Assembly: GCA_044892505.1 (NCBI GenBank)
Contig: CM097882.1
Coordinates: 428,978,001-429,042,000 of the forward strand
Source of the DNA: Schmidtea nova
Lineage: Eukaryota
Length of the DNA stretch: 64,000 bases
Reading direction: 5' to 3'
The notes beneath the pieces are model-generated. The model saw only the letters and a program-made list of their open reading frames with translations, searched no databases and was not told where the DNA came from. The translations under genes were made by a program, and so were the position numbers. Below are positions 12,309 through 27,028 of the stretch, piece by piece; the first letter of the stretch is position 1; each line of letters opens with the position of its first letter.

Positions 12309-13721
12309 AGTAGGCAGTTATGTGGAGCATGAGTCATCGCCGAACAAAGGAAAGGACGTCACCCCCGGGGTAGGAAAAATTTTTATGACTCATCGGCATG
12401 ACTCATCGGTATGACTCATCGATGAATCGTCGATGACTCATTTCAAATTTGAATTTTATGACGTCATCGATGACTCATTTCAAATTCAAATTTTAAATTT
12501 GAATTTCCAAATGTTCAAATAAGGTCAAACCTTCAAACAAGGGTATCATTCGAAAGGTCTTTGAGAGGTGCACACAATGGTCATACCCTCGAAGGTTTAT
12601 GGAGGGTCCTTAACCTTCAAGGGGTCAAATATCTTCAAATTTTTTCAAACCTTATAATATATATATATATATATATATATATATATCATTCGAAAGGTAT
12701 TTGAAGGGTGAGTATGATGGTCATACCTTCGAAGGTCTATGGTGGGTGCTCAACCTTCAAAGGGTACAAAACCTTCAACCTTTTTCAAACCTTGTGTGTA
12801 ATATATCAAACAAAAGGTAATTTAGATGTGCACACAATGGTCATACCTTCGAAGGTCTATAGTGGGTTCTCAACCTTCAAGGGGTCAAAAACCTTCAAAA
12901 ATTTTTAAACATTACTAGTTCTATATCATTCGAAAGGTATTTGAGAGTTGAGTATGATGGTCAACCCTTGAAGGTGGGTGGTCGACCCTTGAAGGGTCCA
13001 AGGTTCAAAACTATGTAATATATGTATCAAACAAAAGGTAATTGGAAATTGAGTATGATGGTCATATTCTTGTGTGTGTATGTGTCAACCATATAACAGT
13101 ACGCATTCAACGCGCGTGCAACGCGCATTGTGAGTCCCTTCCGTGTGTAAGCCATTGNNNNNNNNNNNNNNNNNNNNNNNNNNNNNNNNNNNNNNNNNNN
13201 NNNNNNNNNNNNNNNNNNNNNNNNNNNNNNNNNNNNNNNNNNNNNNNNNNNNNNNNNNNNNNNNNNNNNNNNNNNNNNNNNNNNNNNNNNNNNNNNNNNN
13301 NNNNNNNNNNNNNNNNNNNNNNNNNNNNNNNNNNNNNNNNNNNNNNNNNNNNNNNNNNNNNNNNNNNNNNNNNNNNNNNNNNNNNNNNNNNNNNNNNNNN
13401 NNNNNNNNNNNNNNNNNNNNNNNNNNNNNNNNNNNNNNNNNNNNNNNNNNNNNNNNNNNNNNNNNNNNNNNNNNNNNNNNNNNNNNNNNNNNNNNNNNNN
13501 NNNNNNNNNNNNNNNNNNNNNNNNNNNNNNNNNNNNNNNNNNNNNNNNNNNNNNNNNNNNNNNNNNNNNNNNNNNNNNNNNNNNNNNNNNNNNNNNNNNN
13601 NNNNNNACTTATAAAAAACTAAAATTTAAATTATTAACATTTATTAAATATCATTTATAAAATAACATTTATAAAATAACATTTATGCATATCGTGCACT
13701 GTCAATTCTCCAAATTGGAGT
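12309..13721 (+). repeat. Left TIR of the Maverick (includes an N gap at ~13158-13606)
   Basis: 12309-13157 is the reverse complement of ~25878-26827, and 13607-13721 is the reverse complement of 24365-24480. It contains internal ~120-bp modular subrepeats and an (AT)n tract. Confidence 0.9.
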
Positions 13722-14275
13722 TCGTCATCTTTCTCAAATTCTACCTTTATACAAAACTGAATTTTTACAGAACTCATCTGCGAAACTGTTAAATTTAATT
13801 TATTAATTAAAATATCTGGAACAACAACAATTTTTAAGTTTAAGGATGATACATCCATTTTTAAAATTATGTGGGAATCGTTTAAGTCGGAAATAACCTC
13901 GACATTTCCGCATCCTACTTGATTAATTAAATTATTATTAATTATTTGATCATCATCATCACTGATTTCGATGATTTCATCGTCATTGATTTCATCGTCA
14001 CTTATTTCAATTATTTGATATTTTTGAGGAATTGAATCCTCATTAAAAATTTTTCTTTTATTATTATTTAAATTATTAATTAAAATATTTAGGTTATTAT
14101 TTAATTGTTTATTAATATTAATTAATTCATTTATTTGATTGTTATCAAGTATTGGCTCTTTGTTAATATTTTGTACTTGGTCTGGTATTTGTTGATTAAT
14201 TATTGTTTGCTGGTTAAGTGTTTGCTGGTTATGTATTGAATATACTTTATTAAAAAGTGATTTTTTAGATGTCAT
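13655..14275 (-). CDS. Maverick accessory protein, N/Q/I-rich, with two acidic SIM-like motifs
   Basis: Open 206-aa ORF with IIEISDDE and IIEISDDDD. TATA-like tract about 35 nt upstream. The C-terminus lies inside the TIR. Confidence 0.6.
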   Translation of the reverse strand: MTSKKSLFNKVYSIHNQQTLNQQTIINQQIPDQVQNINKEPILDNNQINELININKQLNNNLNILINNLNNNKRKIFNEDSIPQKYQIIEISDDEINDDEIIEISDDDDQIINNNLINQVGCGNVEVISDLNDSHIILKMDVSSLNLKIVVVPDILINKLNLTVSQMSSVKIQFCIKVEFEKDDELQFGELTVHDMHKCYFINVIL

Positions 14276-15198
14276 TTACTGACTCAAATACAGTGTTTTT
14301 CATAAAATTGTATATATGTATGTTATCAATAATATTACAATTAGGGCATAAAAGGTGGGTGATACCGTTTTACTTATAAGAGTAATACTTTTCCATAATG
14401 ACGTGGCAGTCATTATGGGAAGTACTGTTGCAGTATTGCGGGTATAAATTGCCTATATAACAAGAAATAAAATATTAAATTCAAGTATAAAAAACATTTT
14501 ATTTACTTTTAACATATTACGTAATGATTTACAAAAACTATTACGTATTATATTAAAAGTTTAAATAAAAATATTTGAAATTTTCAAAATAACTTTTGAT
14601 AATATTTTTTCGCTATAAAGTAAAATTATTCTATTTTTCGTTATATAAAATATTGTGACTGTAAATTATTAAAAATAATATGTTATCATAAAATTATCGT
14701 TCATAAAAAGGTTTCATAATCATAAATACATTAATCATTTCTTTTTCATAAATAAATCATTTTTATAAAAAAAATCATTTTATAAAATAAAATCATTTTA
14801 TTTTCATAAATAAATAAAATTCATAAATAAATAATTTCTTCTTCATAAAAATAATGGTCATAAATAAATCATTTTTATAAAATTAATTCATAAATAAATC
14901 ATTTTCATAAAATTATTAAATAAACCATTTCACATTAATAAATCATTTCATCTTCATCAAACTAATGGTTAAAAAATTCATAAATAATTTCATCTTCATA
15001 AAACCACTTGTCATAGATCATTTTCTTAAAATATATAAATCATTTCATCTTTAATAACTTAAATTTAACCATTTCTCTTCATAAATAAAACATTTAATTT
15101 TCATAAAATTCATAAAATTTTTAAAATATTATTATTGTTTTATAATAATATTATCAATAATTATTATAAAATAATAAAATATTTAATAATATATTTTC

Positions 15199-15622
15199 TT
15201 AGACATCATATAAAAAATAATCAAAATATTTACATTTTTTCGATCCAATCGTTAATCCAGCAGCATTAAAATTTGATCCATTACAAGTAGAACCAGCTGC
15301 ATTCGGGGCATAAAAACGAGAACCAGCAGTAATTTGAGCATCAGTTTGACCATAATTTATTATATTATTAATTTCAAAAGATAATTGTCAATTAAAATTA
15401 ACAATAATAAAAGTAAATATACCATTGACTCTATTTCCAATGACTCCATTTCCAATGACAGATCCGTTGTTATTTGAGATAATGTTCGCGATATTGTTCG
15501 CTATATTAACTTCTAATAATATTAAAAATAAATAAGTAAATAAATAAAAAGTAAAATTTACCATTGACTCCAGCTCCCTATGATTTTCGAGCAACTCGTC
15601 CTTGATTCATTAAGTTATTCAT
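15199..15622 (-). pseudogene. Spliced Gly/Asn-rich Maverick accessory gene with ARKS motif
   Basis: Exons 15562-15622, 15423-15512 and ~15199-15350, joined by phase-1 introns. Intron 1 is a 49-nt GT-AG; the intron 2 acceptor reads TG rather than AG. In-frame TAG at 15578-15580. CCAAT (15724) and TATA (~15690) upstream. Confidence 0.5.
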
Positions 15623-25150: not shown

Positions 25151-25225
25151 ATGGCTGATCAGTTAACAGAAGAGCAAATTGCTGAATTCAAAGAAGCATT
25201 TTCTCTTTTCGATAAAGATGGTGAC
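25151..25225 (+). pseudogene. CaM: Calmodulin N-terminal fragment (25 codons) fused to unrelated sequence
   Basis: [25 protein letters not shown] is identical to the calmodulin N-terminus. The frame then diverges and runs into a 132-bp tandem duplication. Confidence 0.85.
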
Positions 25226-25249
25226 GTTTCGATTTGGGTAATGAAGGAA

Positions 25250-25513
25250 TTCTTCGTACTTGTTGTGCCTCAAGTTTCAAACCCCGATTATGGTCTTGCA
25301 ATTTACAATAACTTTATGATTGATCCTCAATCTCCTCTTGTGATGTTCAAAACATATGCCAATAAAATCATTGAGAGGGCGTTCTTCGTACTTGTTGTGT
25401 CTCAAGTTTCAAACCCCGATTATGGTCTTGCAATTTACAATAACTTTATGATTGATCCTCAATCTCCTCTTGTGATGTTCAAAACATATGCCAATAAAAT
25501 CATTGAAAGGGCG
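25250..25513 (+). repeat. 132-bp tandem duplication (two copies, two mismatches), ending at an N gap
   Basis: 25250-25381 versus 25382-25513. Confidence 0.9.
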
Positions 25514-27028
25514 NNNNNNNNNNNNNNNNNNNNNNNNNNNNNNNNNNNNNNNNNNNNNNNNNNNNNNNNNNNNNNNNNNNNNNNNNNNNNNNNNNNNNNN
25601 NNNNNNNNNNNNNNNNNNNNNNNNNNNNNNNNNNNNNNNNNNNNNNNNNNNNNNNNNNNNNNNNNNNNNNNNNNNNNNNNNNNNNNNNNNNNNNNNNNNN
25701 NNNNNNNNNNNNNNNNNNNNNNNNNNNNNNNNNNNNNNNNNNNNNNNNNNNNNNNNNNNNNNNNNNNNNNNNNNNNNNNNNNNNNNNNNNNNNNNNNNNN
25801 NNNNNNNNNNNNNNNNNNNNNNNNNNNNNNNNNNNNNNNNNNNNNNNNNNNNNNNNNNNNNNNNNNNNNNNNNNNNCAATGGCTTGCACACGGAAGGGAC
25901 TCACAACGCGCGTTGAATGCGTACTGTTATCTGTCTTACACACAAGAGACTCACAACGCGCGTTGCACGCGCCTTGAATGTGTACTGTTATATGGTTGAC
26001 ACACATACACACACGCAAGAATATGACCATCATACTCAACTTCCAATTACCTTTTGTTTGATACATATATTACATAGTTTTAAACCTTGTACCCTTCAAG
26101 GGTCGACCACCTACCTTCAAGGGTTGACCATCATACTCAACTCTCAAATACCTTTCGAATGATATATAACTTGTAATGTTTAAAAATTTTTGAAGGTTTT
26201 TGACCCCTTGAAGGTTGAGAACCCACAATAGACCTTCAAAAGTATGACCATTGTGTGCACATCTCAATTACCTTTTGTTTGATATATTACACACAAGGTT
26301 TGAAAAAGGTTGAAGGTTTTGCACTCTTTGAAGGTTGAGCACCCACCATAGACCTTCGAATGTATGACCATTGTGTGCACATCTCAATTACCTTTTGTTT
26401 TATATATTACACACAAGGTTTGAAAAAGGTTGAAGGTTTTGCACCCTTTGAAGGTTGAGCACCCAGCATAGACCTTTGAAGGTATGACCATCATACTCAC
26501 CCTTCAAATACCTTTCGAATGATATATATATATATATATATATATATTATAAGGTTTGAAAAAATTTGAAGGTTTTTGACCCCTTGAAGGTTCAGGACCC
26601 TCCATAAACCCTCGAGGGTATGACCATTGGATAGACCTTTAAAAGACCTTTCGAATGATACTCTTGTTTGAAGGTTTGACCTTATTTGACCTTTGGAAAT
26701 TCAAATTTAAAATTTGAATTTGAAATGAGTCATCGATGACGTCATCGCGATGAGTCATAAAAAATTCTACCCCCGGGAGTCATTTCCTTTGTTCGGCAAT
26801 GACTCATGCTCCACATAACTGCCTACTCATTGTAAGATCAAAATAGAATCCTTAAAAGATATCTAGATAAATAAAATTACCTGATAGCCATTTTTAAAAA
26901 ATGGCTAAATAAAAAATAAATGTAAATGAATAAATAAAACAATAATCAAAGTAACTACGAGTAACAAGTAGGTGTGCAAACCTACTTGTATCATAGTTAT
27001 TTTTAATGCTTGAAACCAGGTGTATTAT

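What the first reader, a model, noticed from the sequence alone, without database searches (positions are those of the whole stretch)
12309..26827. Maverick/Polinton with both TIRs, a TSD and a full virion module but no protein-primed polymerase
pPolB is a defining Polinton gene (established knowledge). Between the TIRs (13721-24365) I can account for nearly all sequence with other genes, and I see no polymerase motifs. The only internal gap is drawn as ~170 N. The exact 6-bp TSD shows integrase-type insertion. Either this is a deletion derivative, or it is a helper-dependent lineage that encodes its own capsid, ATPase, protease, integrase and TBP but borrows replication in trans (inference).
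Basis: partly seen in the sequence, partly recalled or inferred. Interest (0 to 1): 0.7.

Follow-up and report, generated by a model that had tools for sequence, protein, structure and literature searches.

The report
Decayed Polinton with truncated polymerase gene
This is a real but dead virus-like transposon in an animal genome whose DNA polymerase gene was mostly deleted by a rearrangement, leaving only its first piece, so it looks like an ordinary damaged copy rather than a new helper-dependent lineage.

Summary
The insertion is real: 14,519 bp, 5'-AGT...ACT-3' ends, a 6-bp TSD, inserted in a host repeat whose empty site occurs 3 times in the window. No pPolB catalytic domain was found. 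ORF 14275-13722 (-) encodes the first half of the terminal-protein (TP) domain that begins Polinton pPolB. Six homologs were found; one, modelled whole, matches adintovirus/MELD proteins (one labelled PolB) and the PolIV little finger. The match stops at 13718, at the edge of a 115-nt inverted copy of the tail of a right-arm gene. So the 'inner TIR end' at 13721 is a deletion junction. The 'full virion module' is not intact: capsid, ATPase, TBP and a core gene are frameshifted, integrase has two stops, and the protease catalytic site is substituted. Best reading: a dead deletion derivative. Whether sister copies share the junction is untested; polB-less polintons that still spread are already reported in a butterfly preprint. 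Side finding: 40-nt GT-AG introns in the protease (same site in 3 of 3 relatives) and integrase genes.

The parts
11393..12308 (-). Left part of the interrupted host repeat (non-coding; other copies at 3589-4662, 27023-28082, 28139-29205)
   Evidence: 84-85% identity to three copies; empty-site motif in 3 of 3 copies
12303..12308 (.). Left 6-bp target-site duplication
12309..13157 (+). Left outer TIR (starts AGT; 120-bp subrepeats; 6 TGA[CG]TCA sites)
   Evidence: 744 matches / 33 mismatches to the right TIR
13158..13606 (.). 449-N gap; both edges map onto right-arm positions that also border gaps (25877 and about 24479-24495)
13607..13721 (-). Inverted copy of the 3' end and downstream region of the right-arm gene; fused out of frame onto the TP gene
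   Evidence: 113 of 115 identical to 24365-24479
13722..14275 (-). 5' remnant of the pPolB gene: low-complexity leader plus first half of the terminal-protein (D1) domain; second helix, linking-residue loop, last strands and everything downstream are absent
   Evidence: 6 homologs E 6e-7 to 5e-4 among 1.84e9 proteins; profile match 13924-13718 covers positions 24-93 of 161 only; fold of homolog P0004
15928..16097 (.). 170-N gap, upstream of the TP gene and next to a hairpin repeat
16098..16221 (.). 124-bp palindromic hairpin repeat (MITE-like), probably a secondary insertion; related copies at 46039-46200 also sit beside gaps
16355..16759 (-). Conserved family ORF of unknown function, same position after the protease in relative L003
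   Evidence: 36% identity over 132 aa to L003 ORF, E 5e-19
16789..17167 (-). Adenain-like maturation protease; predicted 40-nt GT-AG intron 17162-17123; predicted catalytic residue substituted in this copy
   Evidence: Pfam Peptidase_C5 E 9e-6; intron at the same site (43 nt) in 3 of 3 relatives, motif readable in 1 of 3
17259..18478 (-). Major capsid protein, split over two frames near 18240
   Evidence: Pfam DJR-like E 0.002 below cut-off; 57% to L003 over 326 aa; low-confidence model (pLDDT 41) has adintovirus capsid as top hit, E 4e-4
18475..18823 (-). Small putative core-protein gene with a protease-site-like QxGG motif (label recalled, from no call); frame changes between 18728 and 18705
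   Evidence: motif frames
18820..19860 (-). Putative minor capsid (penton) protein, open frame of 346 aa (label recalled from its N-terminal motif and position)
   Evidence: ORF; 0 Pfam and 0 PHROGs families
19830..20874 (-). rve integrase with chromodomain; predicted 40-nt GT-AG intron 20486-20447; two premature stops (codons 182 and 199 of 335)
20930..21322 (-). Basic protein with hydrophobic C-terminus, open frame; putative virion core/membrane-active protein (label recalled)
   Evidence: ORF; no family hit
21491..22097 (-). Packaging ATPase: Walker A, Walker B and later motifs lie in four successive frame segments (3 frameshifts) with one in-frame stop
   Evidence: only weak P-loop Pfam hits, E 0.03-0.04; the packaging-ATPase label is recalled
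22187..22639 (+). TBP-like gene, two frame changes
   Evidence: Pfam TBP E 3.6e-6 and 3.8e-4 in two frames
23006..23536 (+). ORF of 176 aa, unknown function
   Evidence: one weak PHROG hit E 0.001
23988..24403 (+). Right-arm gene of unknown function, one frame change near 24110-24140; donor of the duplicated tail
24365..24479 (+). Source of the inner inverted repeat (in frame with the right-arm gene here)
24703..25513 (+). 811-bp contig between two gaps; holds a calmodulin-like ORF start (25151) and a 132-nt tandem duplication
   Evidence: (EF-hand E 0.008, below cut-off)
25877..26827 (-). Right outer TIR (ends ACT)
26828..26833 (.). Right 6-bp target-site duplication
26834..27025 (-). Right part of the interrupted host repeat

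Best explanation
An ordinary Polinton (eupolintovirus/adintovirus-type) provirus of an animal, now a dead deletion derivative. SHOWN: integrase-type insertion with 6-bp TSD into a host repeat; a TP-domain gene reading toward the left end and cut mid-domain at 13721/13722; an inverted copy of right-arm sequence beyond the cut; breaks in most core genes. INFERRED: the parent carried TP fused to, or directly followed by, vOTU-exonuclease-palm in the left arm. A strand copying that gene switched template onto the right arm, helped by a short shared word beside the junction, and copied outward to the terminus. This replaced about 3 kb of polymerase gene with a mirror of the right arm and lengthened the inverted repeat. 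It may have happened during protein-primed replication of an extrachromosomal copy, followed by one integration, or after integration by TIR-primed gap repair; both leave the TSD intact and I cannot tell them apart. The copy then decayed neutrally (about 2% per arm) and now encodes nothing that could package, integrate or replicate it. The left gap most likely hides collapsed mirror-image right-arm sequence, not a polymerase.
For: TP identity: 6 homologs; 4 of the 6 run on 66-88 aa past the cut. Model of homolog P0004 (52% identical to the remnant over 52 aa; mean pLDDT 73.7, block means 82-94 over residues 51-150): the only 2 BFVD hits at E<=0.001 are a Drosophila adintovirus protein (2.5e-6) and MELD-virus DNA polymerase B (4.1e-4). 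Best PDB match is the PolIV little finger, 4IR1, Z 8.6, rmsd 2.2, 93 aligned, with Y-family polymerases filling 8 of the top 9 rows; PMC11071308 reports this domain as the best hit for pPolB TP domains. Truncation: profile positions 94-161 match nowhere in the 64-kb window (next best 0.3 bits; 20 shuffles gave at most 5.4) and the match ends at 13718. Junction: the 115-nt repeat is in frame with the right gene and out of frame on the left; a 7-nt shared word lies just outside it, reached in 620-653 of 100,000 random pairs (test designed after I saw the word). Decay; TIR mismatch 33 of 777; in 28 of the 40 difference rows shown (of 1,041, best-supported only) at least 94% of laid depth in all three organism-A runs differs from the window, including the integrase's first stop and the protease site. 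96% of vertebrate Mavericks are degraded (PMC8097293).
Against: No full-length pPolB was linked to the remnant by sequence: two searches among longer proteins found 0 of 3,326 and 0 of 7,994 candidates, the Atlas gave no named family and Pfam none. The link rests on the fold of a homolog, with modest TM-scores (0.48, 0.41) and a Z only just above the tool's noise note of 8. The profile was built from proteins found with the remnant, so its score is circular; only where it stops is informative. No sister copy with an intact polymerase was seen. Contigs nearly identical to the TP region (194 nt, 0 differences, depth 500) and to the calmodulin-like region (196 nt, 0 differences, depth 449) exist in run X5, against depths of 7-22 for the diverged pieces shown, so this left-arm type is multi-copy and those copies might share the junction (summed contig depth is no copy number). 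The junction contig lies between two gaps.
Confidence: 0.68

Rival explanations
1. Amplified polymerase-less subfamily. The template switch happened once in a replicating copy; the shortened genome kept both origins and its virion and integrase genes, was copied in trans by helper Polintons like a defective-interfering genome, and integrated many times. This window copy is one decayed member.
For: The TP-region and calmodulin-like-region contigs have similar, well above single-copy, depth (about 450-630 in X3/X5). Inner repeat identity (113 of 115) is not distinguishable from outer TIR identity (Fisher p 0.30), so the junction may predate insertion. The family is abundant, so helpers are plausible. 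Precedent: polB-less, TIR-flanked polintons inferred to have amplified in Pieris mannii (bioRxiv 10.1101/2025.02.07.637071, section 13).
Against: The one exact-match contig shown at the junction (X5 piece 25) ends at 13724, 3 nt short of it, instead of running about 30 nt into the shared repeat as expected if all sisters carried the junction; this suggests a fork there, but it is one contig and could be a chance break. No second insertion with this layout is in hand.
Confidence: 0.17
2. Assembly artefact. The short-read scaffold collapsed or misjoined near-identical copies; the real insertion has a polymerase, hidden in an under-sized gap or dropped at a chimeric join at 13721.
For: Twelve N-gaps in 64 kb, four inside the element; the junction is 115 nt from a contig end; the family is highly repetitive (82,135 contigs laid in X2); no shown contig bridges the junction.
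Against: The two copies of the inner repeat differ at 2 of 115 positions and end in different tandem-unit numbers, so they are not one sequence placed twice; the TSD and both flanks are coherent with the empty site; both edges of the left gap map onto right-arm sequence that also borders gaps, as collapsed mirror arms would give; the 170-N gap lies upstream of the TP gene.
Confidence: 0.12
3. The ORF is a stand-alone TP gene (as in a coral polinton) or an unrelated little-finger-fold protein, and this family replicates with a different or separately placed enzyme.
For: Split TP genes exist in some polintons (PMC11071308); polymerase swaps with the other genes unchanged are known (PMC10748475). 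The TP bin has only 1.5-4.7% of core depth, so most family members carry a different left arm at the 85% level.
Against: Even a stand-alone TP would be cut mid-domain here; no other replicase was found in six frames; homolog P0004 runs on past the domain into a GS-x-YI-x-x-P motif that I recall as the linker to vOTU (recalled, no call).
Confidence: 0.03

Closest known systems
Polintons/Mavericks (eupolintoviruses, formerly adintoviruses) of animals
   Same: 14.5 kb, TIRs of about 0.85-0.95 kb or more, 6-bp TSD (13-25 kb, 100-1,500-bp TIRs, 5-8-bp TSDs in PMC10748475); rve integrase, adenain, DJR capsid, ATPase; TP domain of pPolB
   Different: Polymerase cut within the TP domain; most core genes broken; TBP-like gene; predicted 40-nt spliceosomal introns in protease and integrase, whereas intact vertebrate Mavericks are described as intronless (PMC8097293)
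polB-lacking polintons of Pieris mannii (bioRxiv 10.1101/2025.02.07.637071)
   Same: TIR-flanked polintons without polB beside close relatives that keep it; the same preprint describes ~2-kb TIRs that include genes
   Different: There the loss coincides with LINE or gypsy insertions and several copies share it; here the loss is at an inverted duplication of the element's own right arm and only one copy is known
Degraded vertebrate Mavericks (PMC8097293)
   Same: Stops, frameshifts and missing core genes; 96% of 3,511 loci are like this
   Different: Both ends and the TSD are still recognisable here; host is an animal with no close named relative
Polinton-like viruses and Tlr1 elements
   Same: Capsid module without a complete pPolB (PMC11071308)
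   Different: They carry a replacement replicase (TP-vOTU-palm-S1H, AEP or PolA); none is found here, and the remnant is cut at a visible junction
Defective adenovirus-type genomes with extended inverted repeats; SDSA deletion derivatives of TIR transposons (recalled, no call)
   Same: Loss of internal genes with both origins kept, by template switch at short homology
   Different: Used only as a mechanistic analogy; not tested here

Membership tests
Polinton/Maverick | Long TIRs with 5'-AG...CT-3' type ends | tested here: met
   12309-13157 / 25877-26827, 744 matches and 33 mismatches; ends AGT/ACT. The AG/CT rule is recalled.
Polinton/Maverick | 6-bp target-site duplication | tested here: met
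   CATTGT on both sides; single copy in 3 of 3 empty sites
Polinton/Maverick | Retroviral-type (rve) integrase | tested here: met
   Pfam rve E 4.5e-7 (30.5 bits, cut-off 32.6) plus chromodomain; as a pseudogene with two stops
Polinton/Maverick | Protein-primed PolB gene, by descent | tested here: inconclusive
   5' TP-domain remnant supported by the fold of a homolog; no sequence link to a full-length pPolB
Autonomous Polinton | Complete pPolB (TP-vOTU-exonuclease-palm) | tested here: not met
   TP cut at profile position 93 of 161; no catalytic domain in 6 frames and no room outside gaps; 1,189 N inside the element not readable
Polinton/Maverick | DJR major capsid protein | tested here: inconclusive
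   Pfam DJR-like E 0.002 below cut-off; model pLDDT 41 with adintovirus capsid as top hit, E 4e-4; likely, but weakly shown
Polinton/Maverick | Adenain-like protease | tested here: met
   Peptidase_C5 25.9 bits, above the 21.3 cut-off; catalytic site substituted in this copy
Polinton/Maverick | Packaging ATPase and minor capsid protein | tested here: inconclusive
   Walker motifs in broken frames, only weak P-loop hits; no family hit for the putative penton; labels recalled
Helper-dependent (non-autonomous) Polinton lineage | Several independent insertions share the polymerase-less layout | not testable with these tools
   No genome held; contig pieces shown do not bridge the junction
Helper-dependent (non-autonomous) Polinton lineage | Virion and integrase genes intact | tested here: not met
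   In this copy capsid, ATPase, TBP, core gene, integrase and protease are broken
Polinton-like virus / Tlr1 | Replacement replicase (S1H fusion, AEP or PolA) | tested here: not met
   No such Pfam hit in 23 ORFs or 6 read-through frames; gaps not readable

The most novel reading that the evidence does not exclude
A defective-interfering Polinton subfamily: one template switch cut the polymerase inside its terminal-protein domain and mirrored about 2.4 kb of the right arm (with a captured calmodulin-like gene) onto the left; the product was then replicated by helper polymerase, packaged and integrated tens of times, in a Polinton lineage whose core genes carry conserved 40-nt spliceosomal introns, which would tie its gene expression to the host nucleus.
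Probability: 0.15. Interest if true: 0.5.

Novelty: new member of a known kind. Interest (0 to 1): 0.24.

Why it matters
As it stands it is a well-delimited example of how a Polinton loses its polymerase: a mappable junction that swaps the gene for a mirror of the opposite arm. It also shows that 'no pPolB motifs' calls can miss TP remnants, which Pfam did not detect here. If sister insertions share the junction, it would be a second case, after the Pieris preprint, of trans-replicated polintons, and the first with a defined breakpoint. The intron at a conserved site in the protease gene of a family with 56-57% capsid identity is a separate lead: some apparent frameshifts in Polinton annotations are introns. 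I did not find such conserved core-gene introns in animal polintons in two searches (listings plus passages of two papers), which is a shallow check.

Tried and rejected
Whole genome: none held. Full-length polymerase relatives of the remnant: 0 of 3,326 and 0 of 7,994 candidates (the tool calls this weak evidence); PDB by sequence, nothing under E 0.3; phages, no match; Atlas, no usable hit for the remnant and only unnamed eukaryotic/arthropod clusters at 0.88-0.91 for P0004. Full-length relatives with flanks: viral contigs gave none in 4 scans, genome contigs none, metagenome contigs 3 loci of only 1.5-2.1 kb covering capsid, protease and one ORF. Run X1 (soil metagenome, share 0.14) covers the core but has no depth in 13228-14205; absence of cover proves nothing and I draw no habitat claim from it. 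Runs X2-X5 come from one study and may include the assembly's own source, so they are not independent support. Summed contig depth was not used as copy number. The capsid model was poor (pLDDT 41). Host: the DDX4/vasa gene shows an animal, best named hits 52% or lower; not placed further. Earlier scan findings: 0 in 4 look-ups. Rejected: pPolB in the 170-N gap (it lies upstream of the TP gene, beside a hairpin repeat); the integrase and protease 5' 'frameshifts' as decay (they fit GT-AG introns; only 3 such GTAAR..TTAG 38-45-nt signals occur on the minus strand of 13607-24495, two of them these); inner repeat younger than insertion (not significant).

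
Full report
OBSERVATION. The element runs from 12309 to 26827 (14,519 bp, 1,189 N). It starts AGT and ends ACT, with CATTGT on both sides. It interrupts a host repeat: the left flank 11393-12308 and right flank 26834-27025 are collinear with three other copies in the window, and 3 of 3 carry the uninterrupted target with one copy of the TSD word. The empty-site joint is also in contigs of 3 of the 4 runs laid. The outer TIRs align with 744 matches and 33 mismatches plus indels. 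The insertion is real and of integrase type.

GENES. Pfam on 23 frames gave rve integrase, chromodomain, adenain, TBP (two frames) and a sub-threshold DJR capsid hit. Three short metagenome loci carry capsid relatives at 56-57% identity, and L003 has the same order capsid-protease-ORF. No DNA_pol_B_2 or other replicase hit appeared in six frames read through with X at stops. That scan is insensitive, since it also lost the protease and capsid hits. The better argument is space: the largest unassigned stretch is 1,652 bp at 22% GC.

THE MISSED REMNANT. ORF 14275->13655 on the minus strand has a low-complexity leader and then a globular stretch. A search of 1.84 billion representatives with residues before 13724 gave 6 hits at E 6e-7 to 5e-4. 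Four of the six run on 66-88 residues past the point where the window's match ends; two are short fragments. A model of P0004 with an 8-sequence alignment has the order strand-strand-helix-strand-strand-helix-strand. Its only two BFVD hits at E<=0.001 are a Drosophila-associated adintovirus 2 protein and a MELD-virus DNA polymerase B. Its best match among 48,161 solved chains is the PolIV little finger, 4IR1 (Z 8.6, rmsd 2.2, 93 aligned), and Y-family polymerases take 8 of the top 9 rows. PMC11071308 (sections 7 and 8 and passages read) reports that the terminal-protein (D1) domain at the start of polinton pPolB has a 4-5-stranded sheet with two helices, a Ser/Tyr linking residue beside Gly between helix 2 and the last strand, and the little-finger domain as best structural hit. 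P0001, P0004, P0005 and P0006 have Ser next to Gly in that loop. The window ORF aligns to P0004 residues 42-93 (52% identity), so it lacks helix 2, the linking loop and the last strands. A profile of the six homologs matches the window only at 13924-13718, positions 24-93 of 161; the rest matches nowhere in 64 kb. Limits: the profile score is circular; the polymerase link rests on the fold of a homolog; sequence searches for long relatives found none.

THE JUNCTION. The 115 nt at 13607-13721 are an inverted copy (113 of 115) of 24365-24479. On the right this stretch is the in-frame end of the gene at 23988-24403; on the left it is fused out of frame onto the TP gene. The right side is therefore the donor. 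A 7-nt word shared by both sides lies 4-5 nt outside the repeat; random pairs from the same regions reach this in about 0.6% of 100,000 trials (a post-hoc test). Both edges of the left 449-N gap map to right-arm positions that also border gaps, as expected if two mirror arms of about 2.4 kb collapsed in a short-read assembly.

DECAY. Motifs change frame once in the capsid gene, three times in the ATPase (plus one stop), twice in TBP, once in the small core gene and once in the right-arm gene. The integrase has two premature stops and the protease's predicted catalytic residue is substituted. Only the putative penton and two or three small ORFs are open. In 28 of the 40 difference rows shown (of 1,041; best-supported only) at least 94% of the laid depth in all three organism-A runs differs from the window, including the first integrase stop and the protease site, so these lesions are private. 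TIR mismatch of 4.2% implies about 2% per arm, and the 45-48% share of 31-mers held by those runs fits 2-2.5% divergence. Two apparent breaks are not decay: 40-nt GT-AG segments at 17162-17123 and 20486-20447 keep the frame when left out, and the protease one recurs at the same site, 43 nt long, in 3 of 3 relatives. No RNA evidence was obtained.

THE FAMILY. Runs X2, X3 and X5 (one study, perhaps the assembly's source) hold a very large family. The bin with the TP remnant has 4.7%, 1.5% and 1.5% of the core's summed depth, the right-arm gene 27-54%. These figures are no copy numbers, but most members evidently have another left arm at the 85% level; whether it holds a polymerase I could not see. 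Contigs nearly identical to the TP region have depth about 500-630 in X3/X5, against 4-28 for diverged pieces, so this left-arm type has sisters. X5 piece 25 ends at 13724, 3 nt from the junction, which fits a fork there better than a junction shared by all sisters. It is one contig among 32 shown of about 163,000, and none shown bridges the junction. Private versus shared is therefore open.

MECHANISM. Most likely (0.68): a template switch from the polymerase gene onto the right arm replaced the gene's downstream ~3 kb (size from recalled pPolB lengths) with a mirror of that arm, before or after integration, and the copy then decayed. Rivals: amplified helper-dependent subfamily (0.17), misassembly (0.12), stand-alone TP with another replicase (0.03).

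COMPARISON. It works like, and descends from, a Polinton; it fails the test for an autonomous one. Degraded copies are the rule in vertebrates (96% of 3,511 loci; PMC8097293, passages). PolB-less polintons inferred to have kept spreading are described for Pieris mannii (bioRxiv 10.1101/2025.02.07.637071; sections 12 and 13 and passages read; figures, extended data and supplements not seen, and they may bear on how close that case is). A TBP-like gene is listed in a figure legend for MELD viruses of non-animal datasets (PMC8502044, passages). Polymerase swaps are described in nematode polintons (PMC10748475, passages). Introns in polinton-like elements are reported as introner insertions in dinoflagellates (PMC12166617, passages). 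Seven literature searches were run; other papers were seen only as listings. Labels for the penton, the core proteins, the packaging ATPase and the linker after the TP domain are recalled and come from no call.

VERDICT. Real insertion, correct ends, wrong headline. A new but ordinary degraded member of a known kind, with a clearly mapped polymerase-deleting junction. Interest 0.24. The most novel reading not excluded is a trans-replicated subfamily sharing the junction (probability 0.15, interest 0.5).

Noticed in passing
window 17162-17123 (-) and 20486-20447 (-); L001:969, L002:1280, L003:1061: Predicted 40-nt GT-AG introns in the protease and integrase genes; the protease intron sits after codon 2 in the window and in 3 of 3 relatives at 56-57% capsid identity. 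Homologs P0005 and P0006 also seem to read into an intron right after the TP domain (by eye).
   Followed up: partly
window 25151-25513 (+): ORF whose first 25 residues read like the start of calmodulin (recalled; EF-hand Pfam E 0.008), then diverged sequence with a 132-nt tandem duplication. Possible captured host gene in the right arm; near-identical contigs upstream of it at depth 449-552 in X3/X5.
   Followed up: partly
window 12309-12480 and 26720-26810: TGA[CG]TCA (AP-1-like) words: 6 in the left TIR and 3 in the right, of 16 in the whole window; the TIRs also hold 120-bp tandem subrepeats whose copy number differs between arms.
   Followed up: no
window 16098-16221; 46039-46200; 35618-35729: Short palindromic hairpin repeat family; copies tend to sit beside assembly gaps.
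   Followed up: no
window 15200-15610 (-): Short Gly/Asn-rich open segments separated by AT-rich stretches with GT donors, perhaps a small multi-exon gene of the element; not identified.
   Followed up: no
window 9024-10656 and 29452-31092: A 1.64-kb host segment with a fibronectin-like-looking exon (label recalled) is duplicated at 98% identity on either side of the element; tandem duplication or haplotype artefact.
   Followed up: no
window 56086-58986 (-): DDX4/vasa-like DEAD-box gene with a long RS/RD-rich leader in one open frame; 75% to one unnamed protein, 52% or less to named animals.
   Followed up: partly
window 1508-2758 (-) and 5335-6927 (-): Remains of two hAT-like transposase genes (label recalled from their motifs).
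   Followed up: no
run X2 versus X3 and X5, window 13717-14205: The TP-remnant bin is 4.7% of core depth in X2 but 1.5% in X3 and X5; may mean this left-arm type varies in abundance between samples, but summed contig depth is a poor measure.
   Followed up: no
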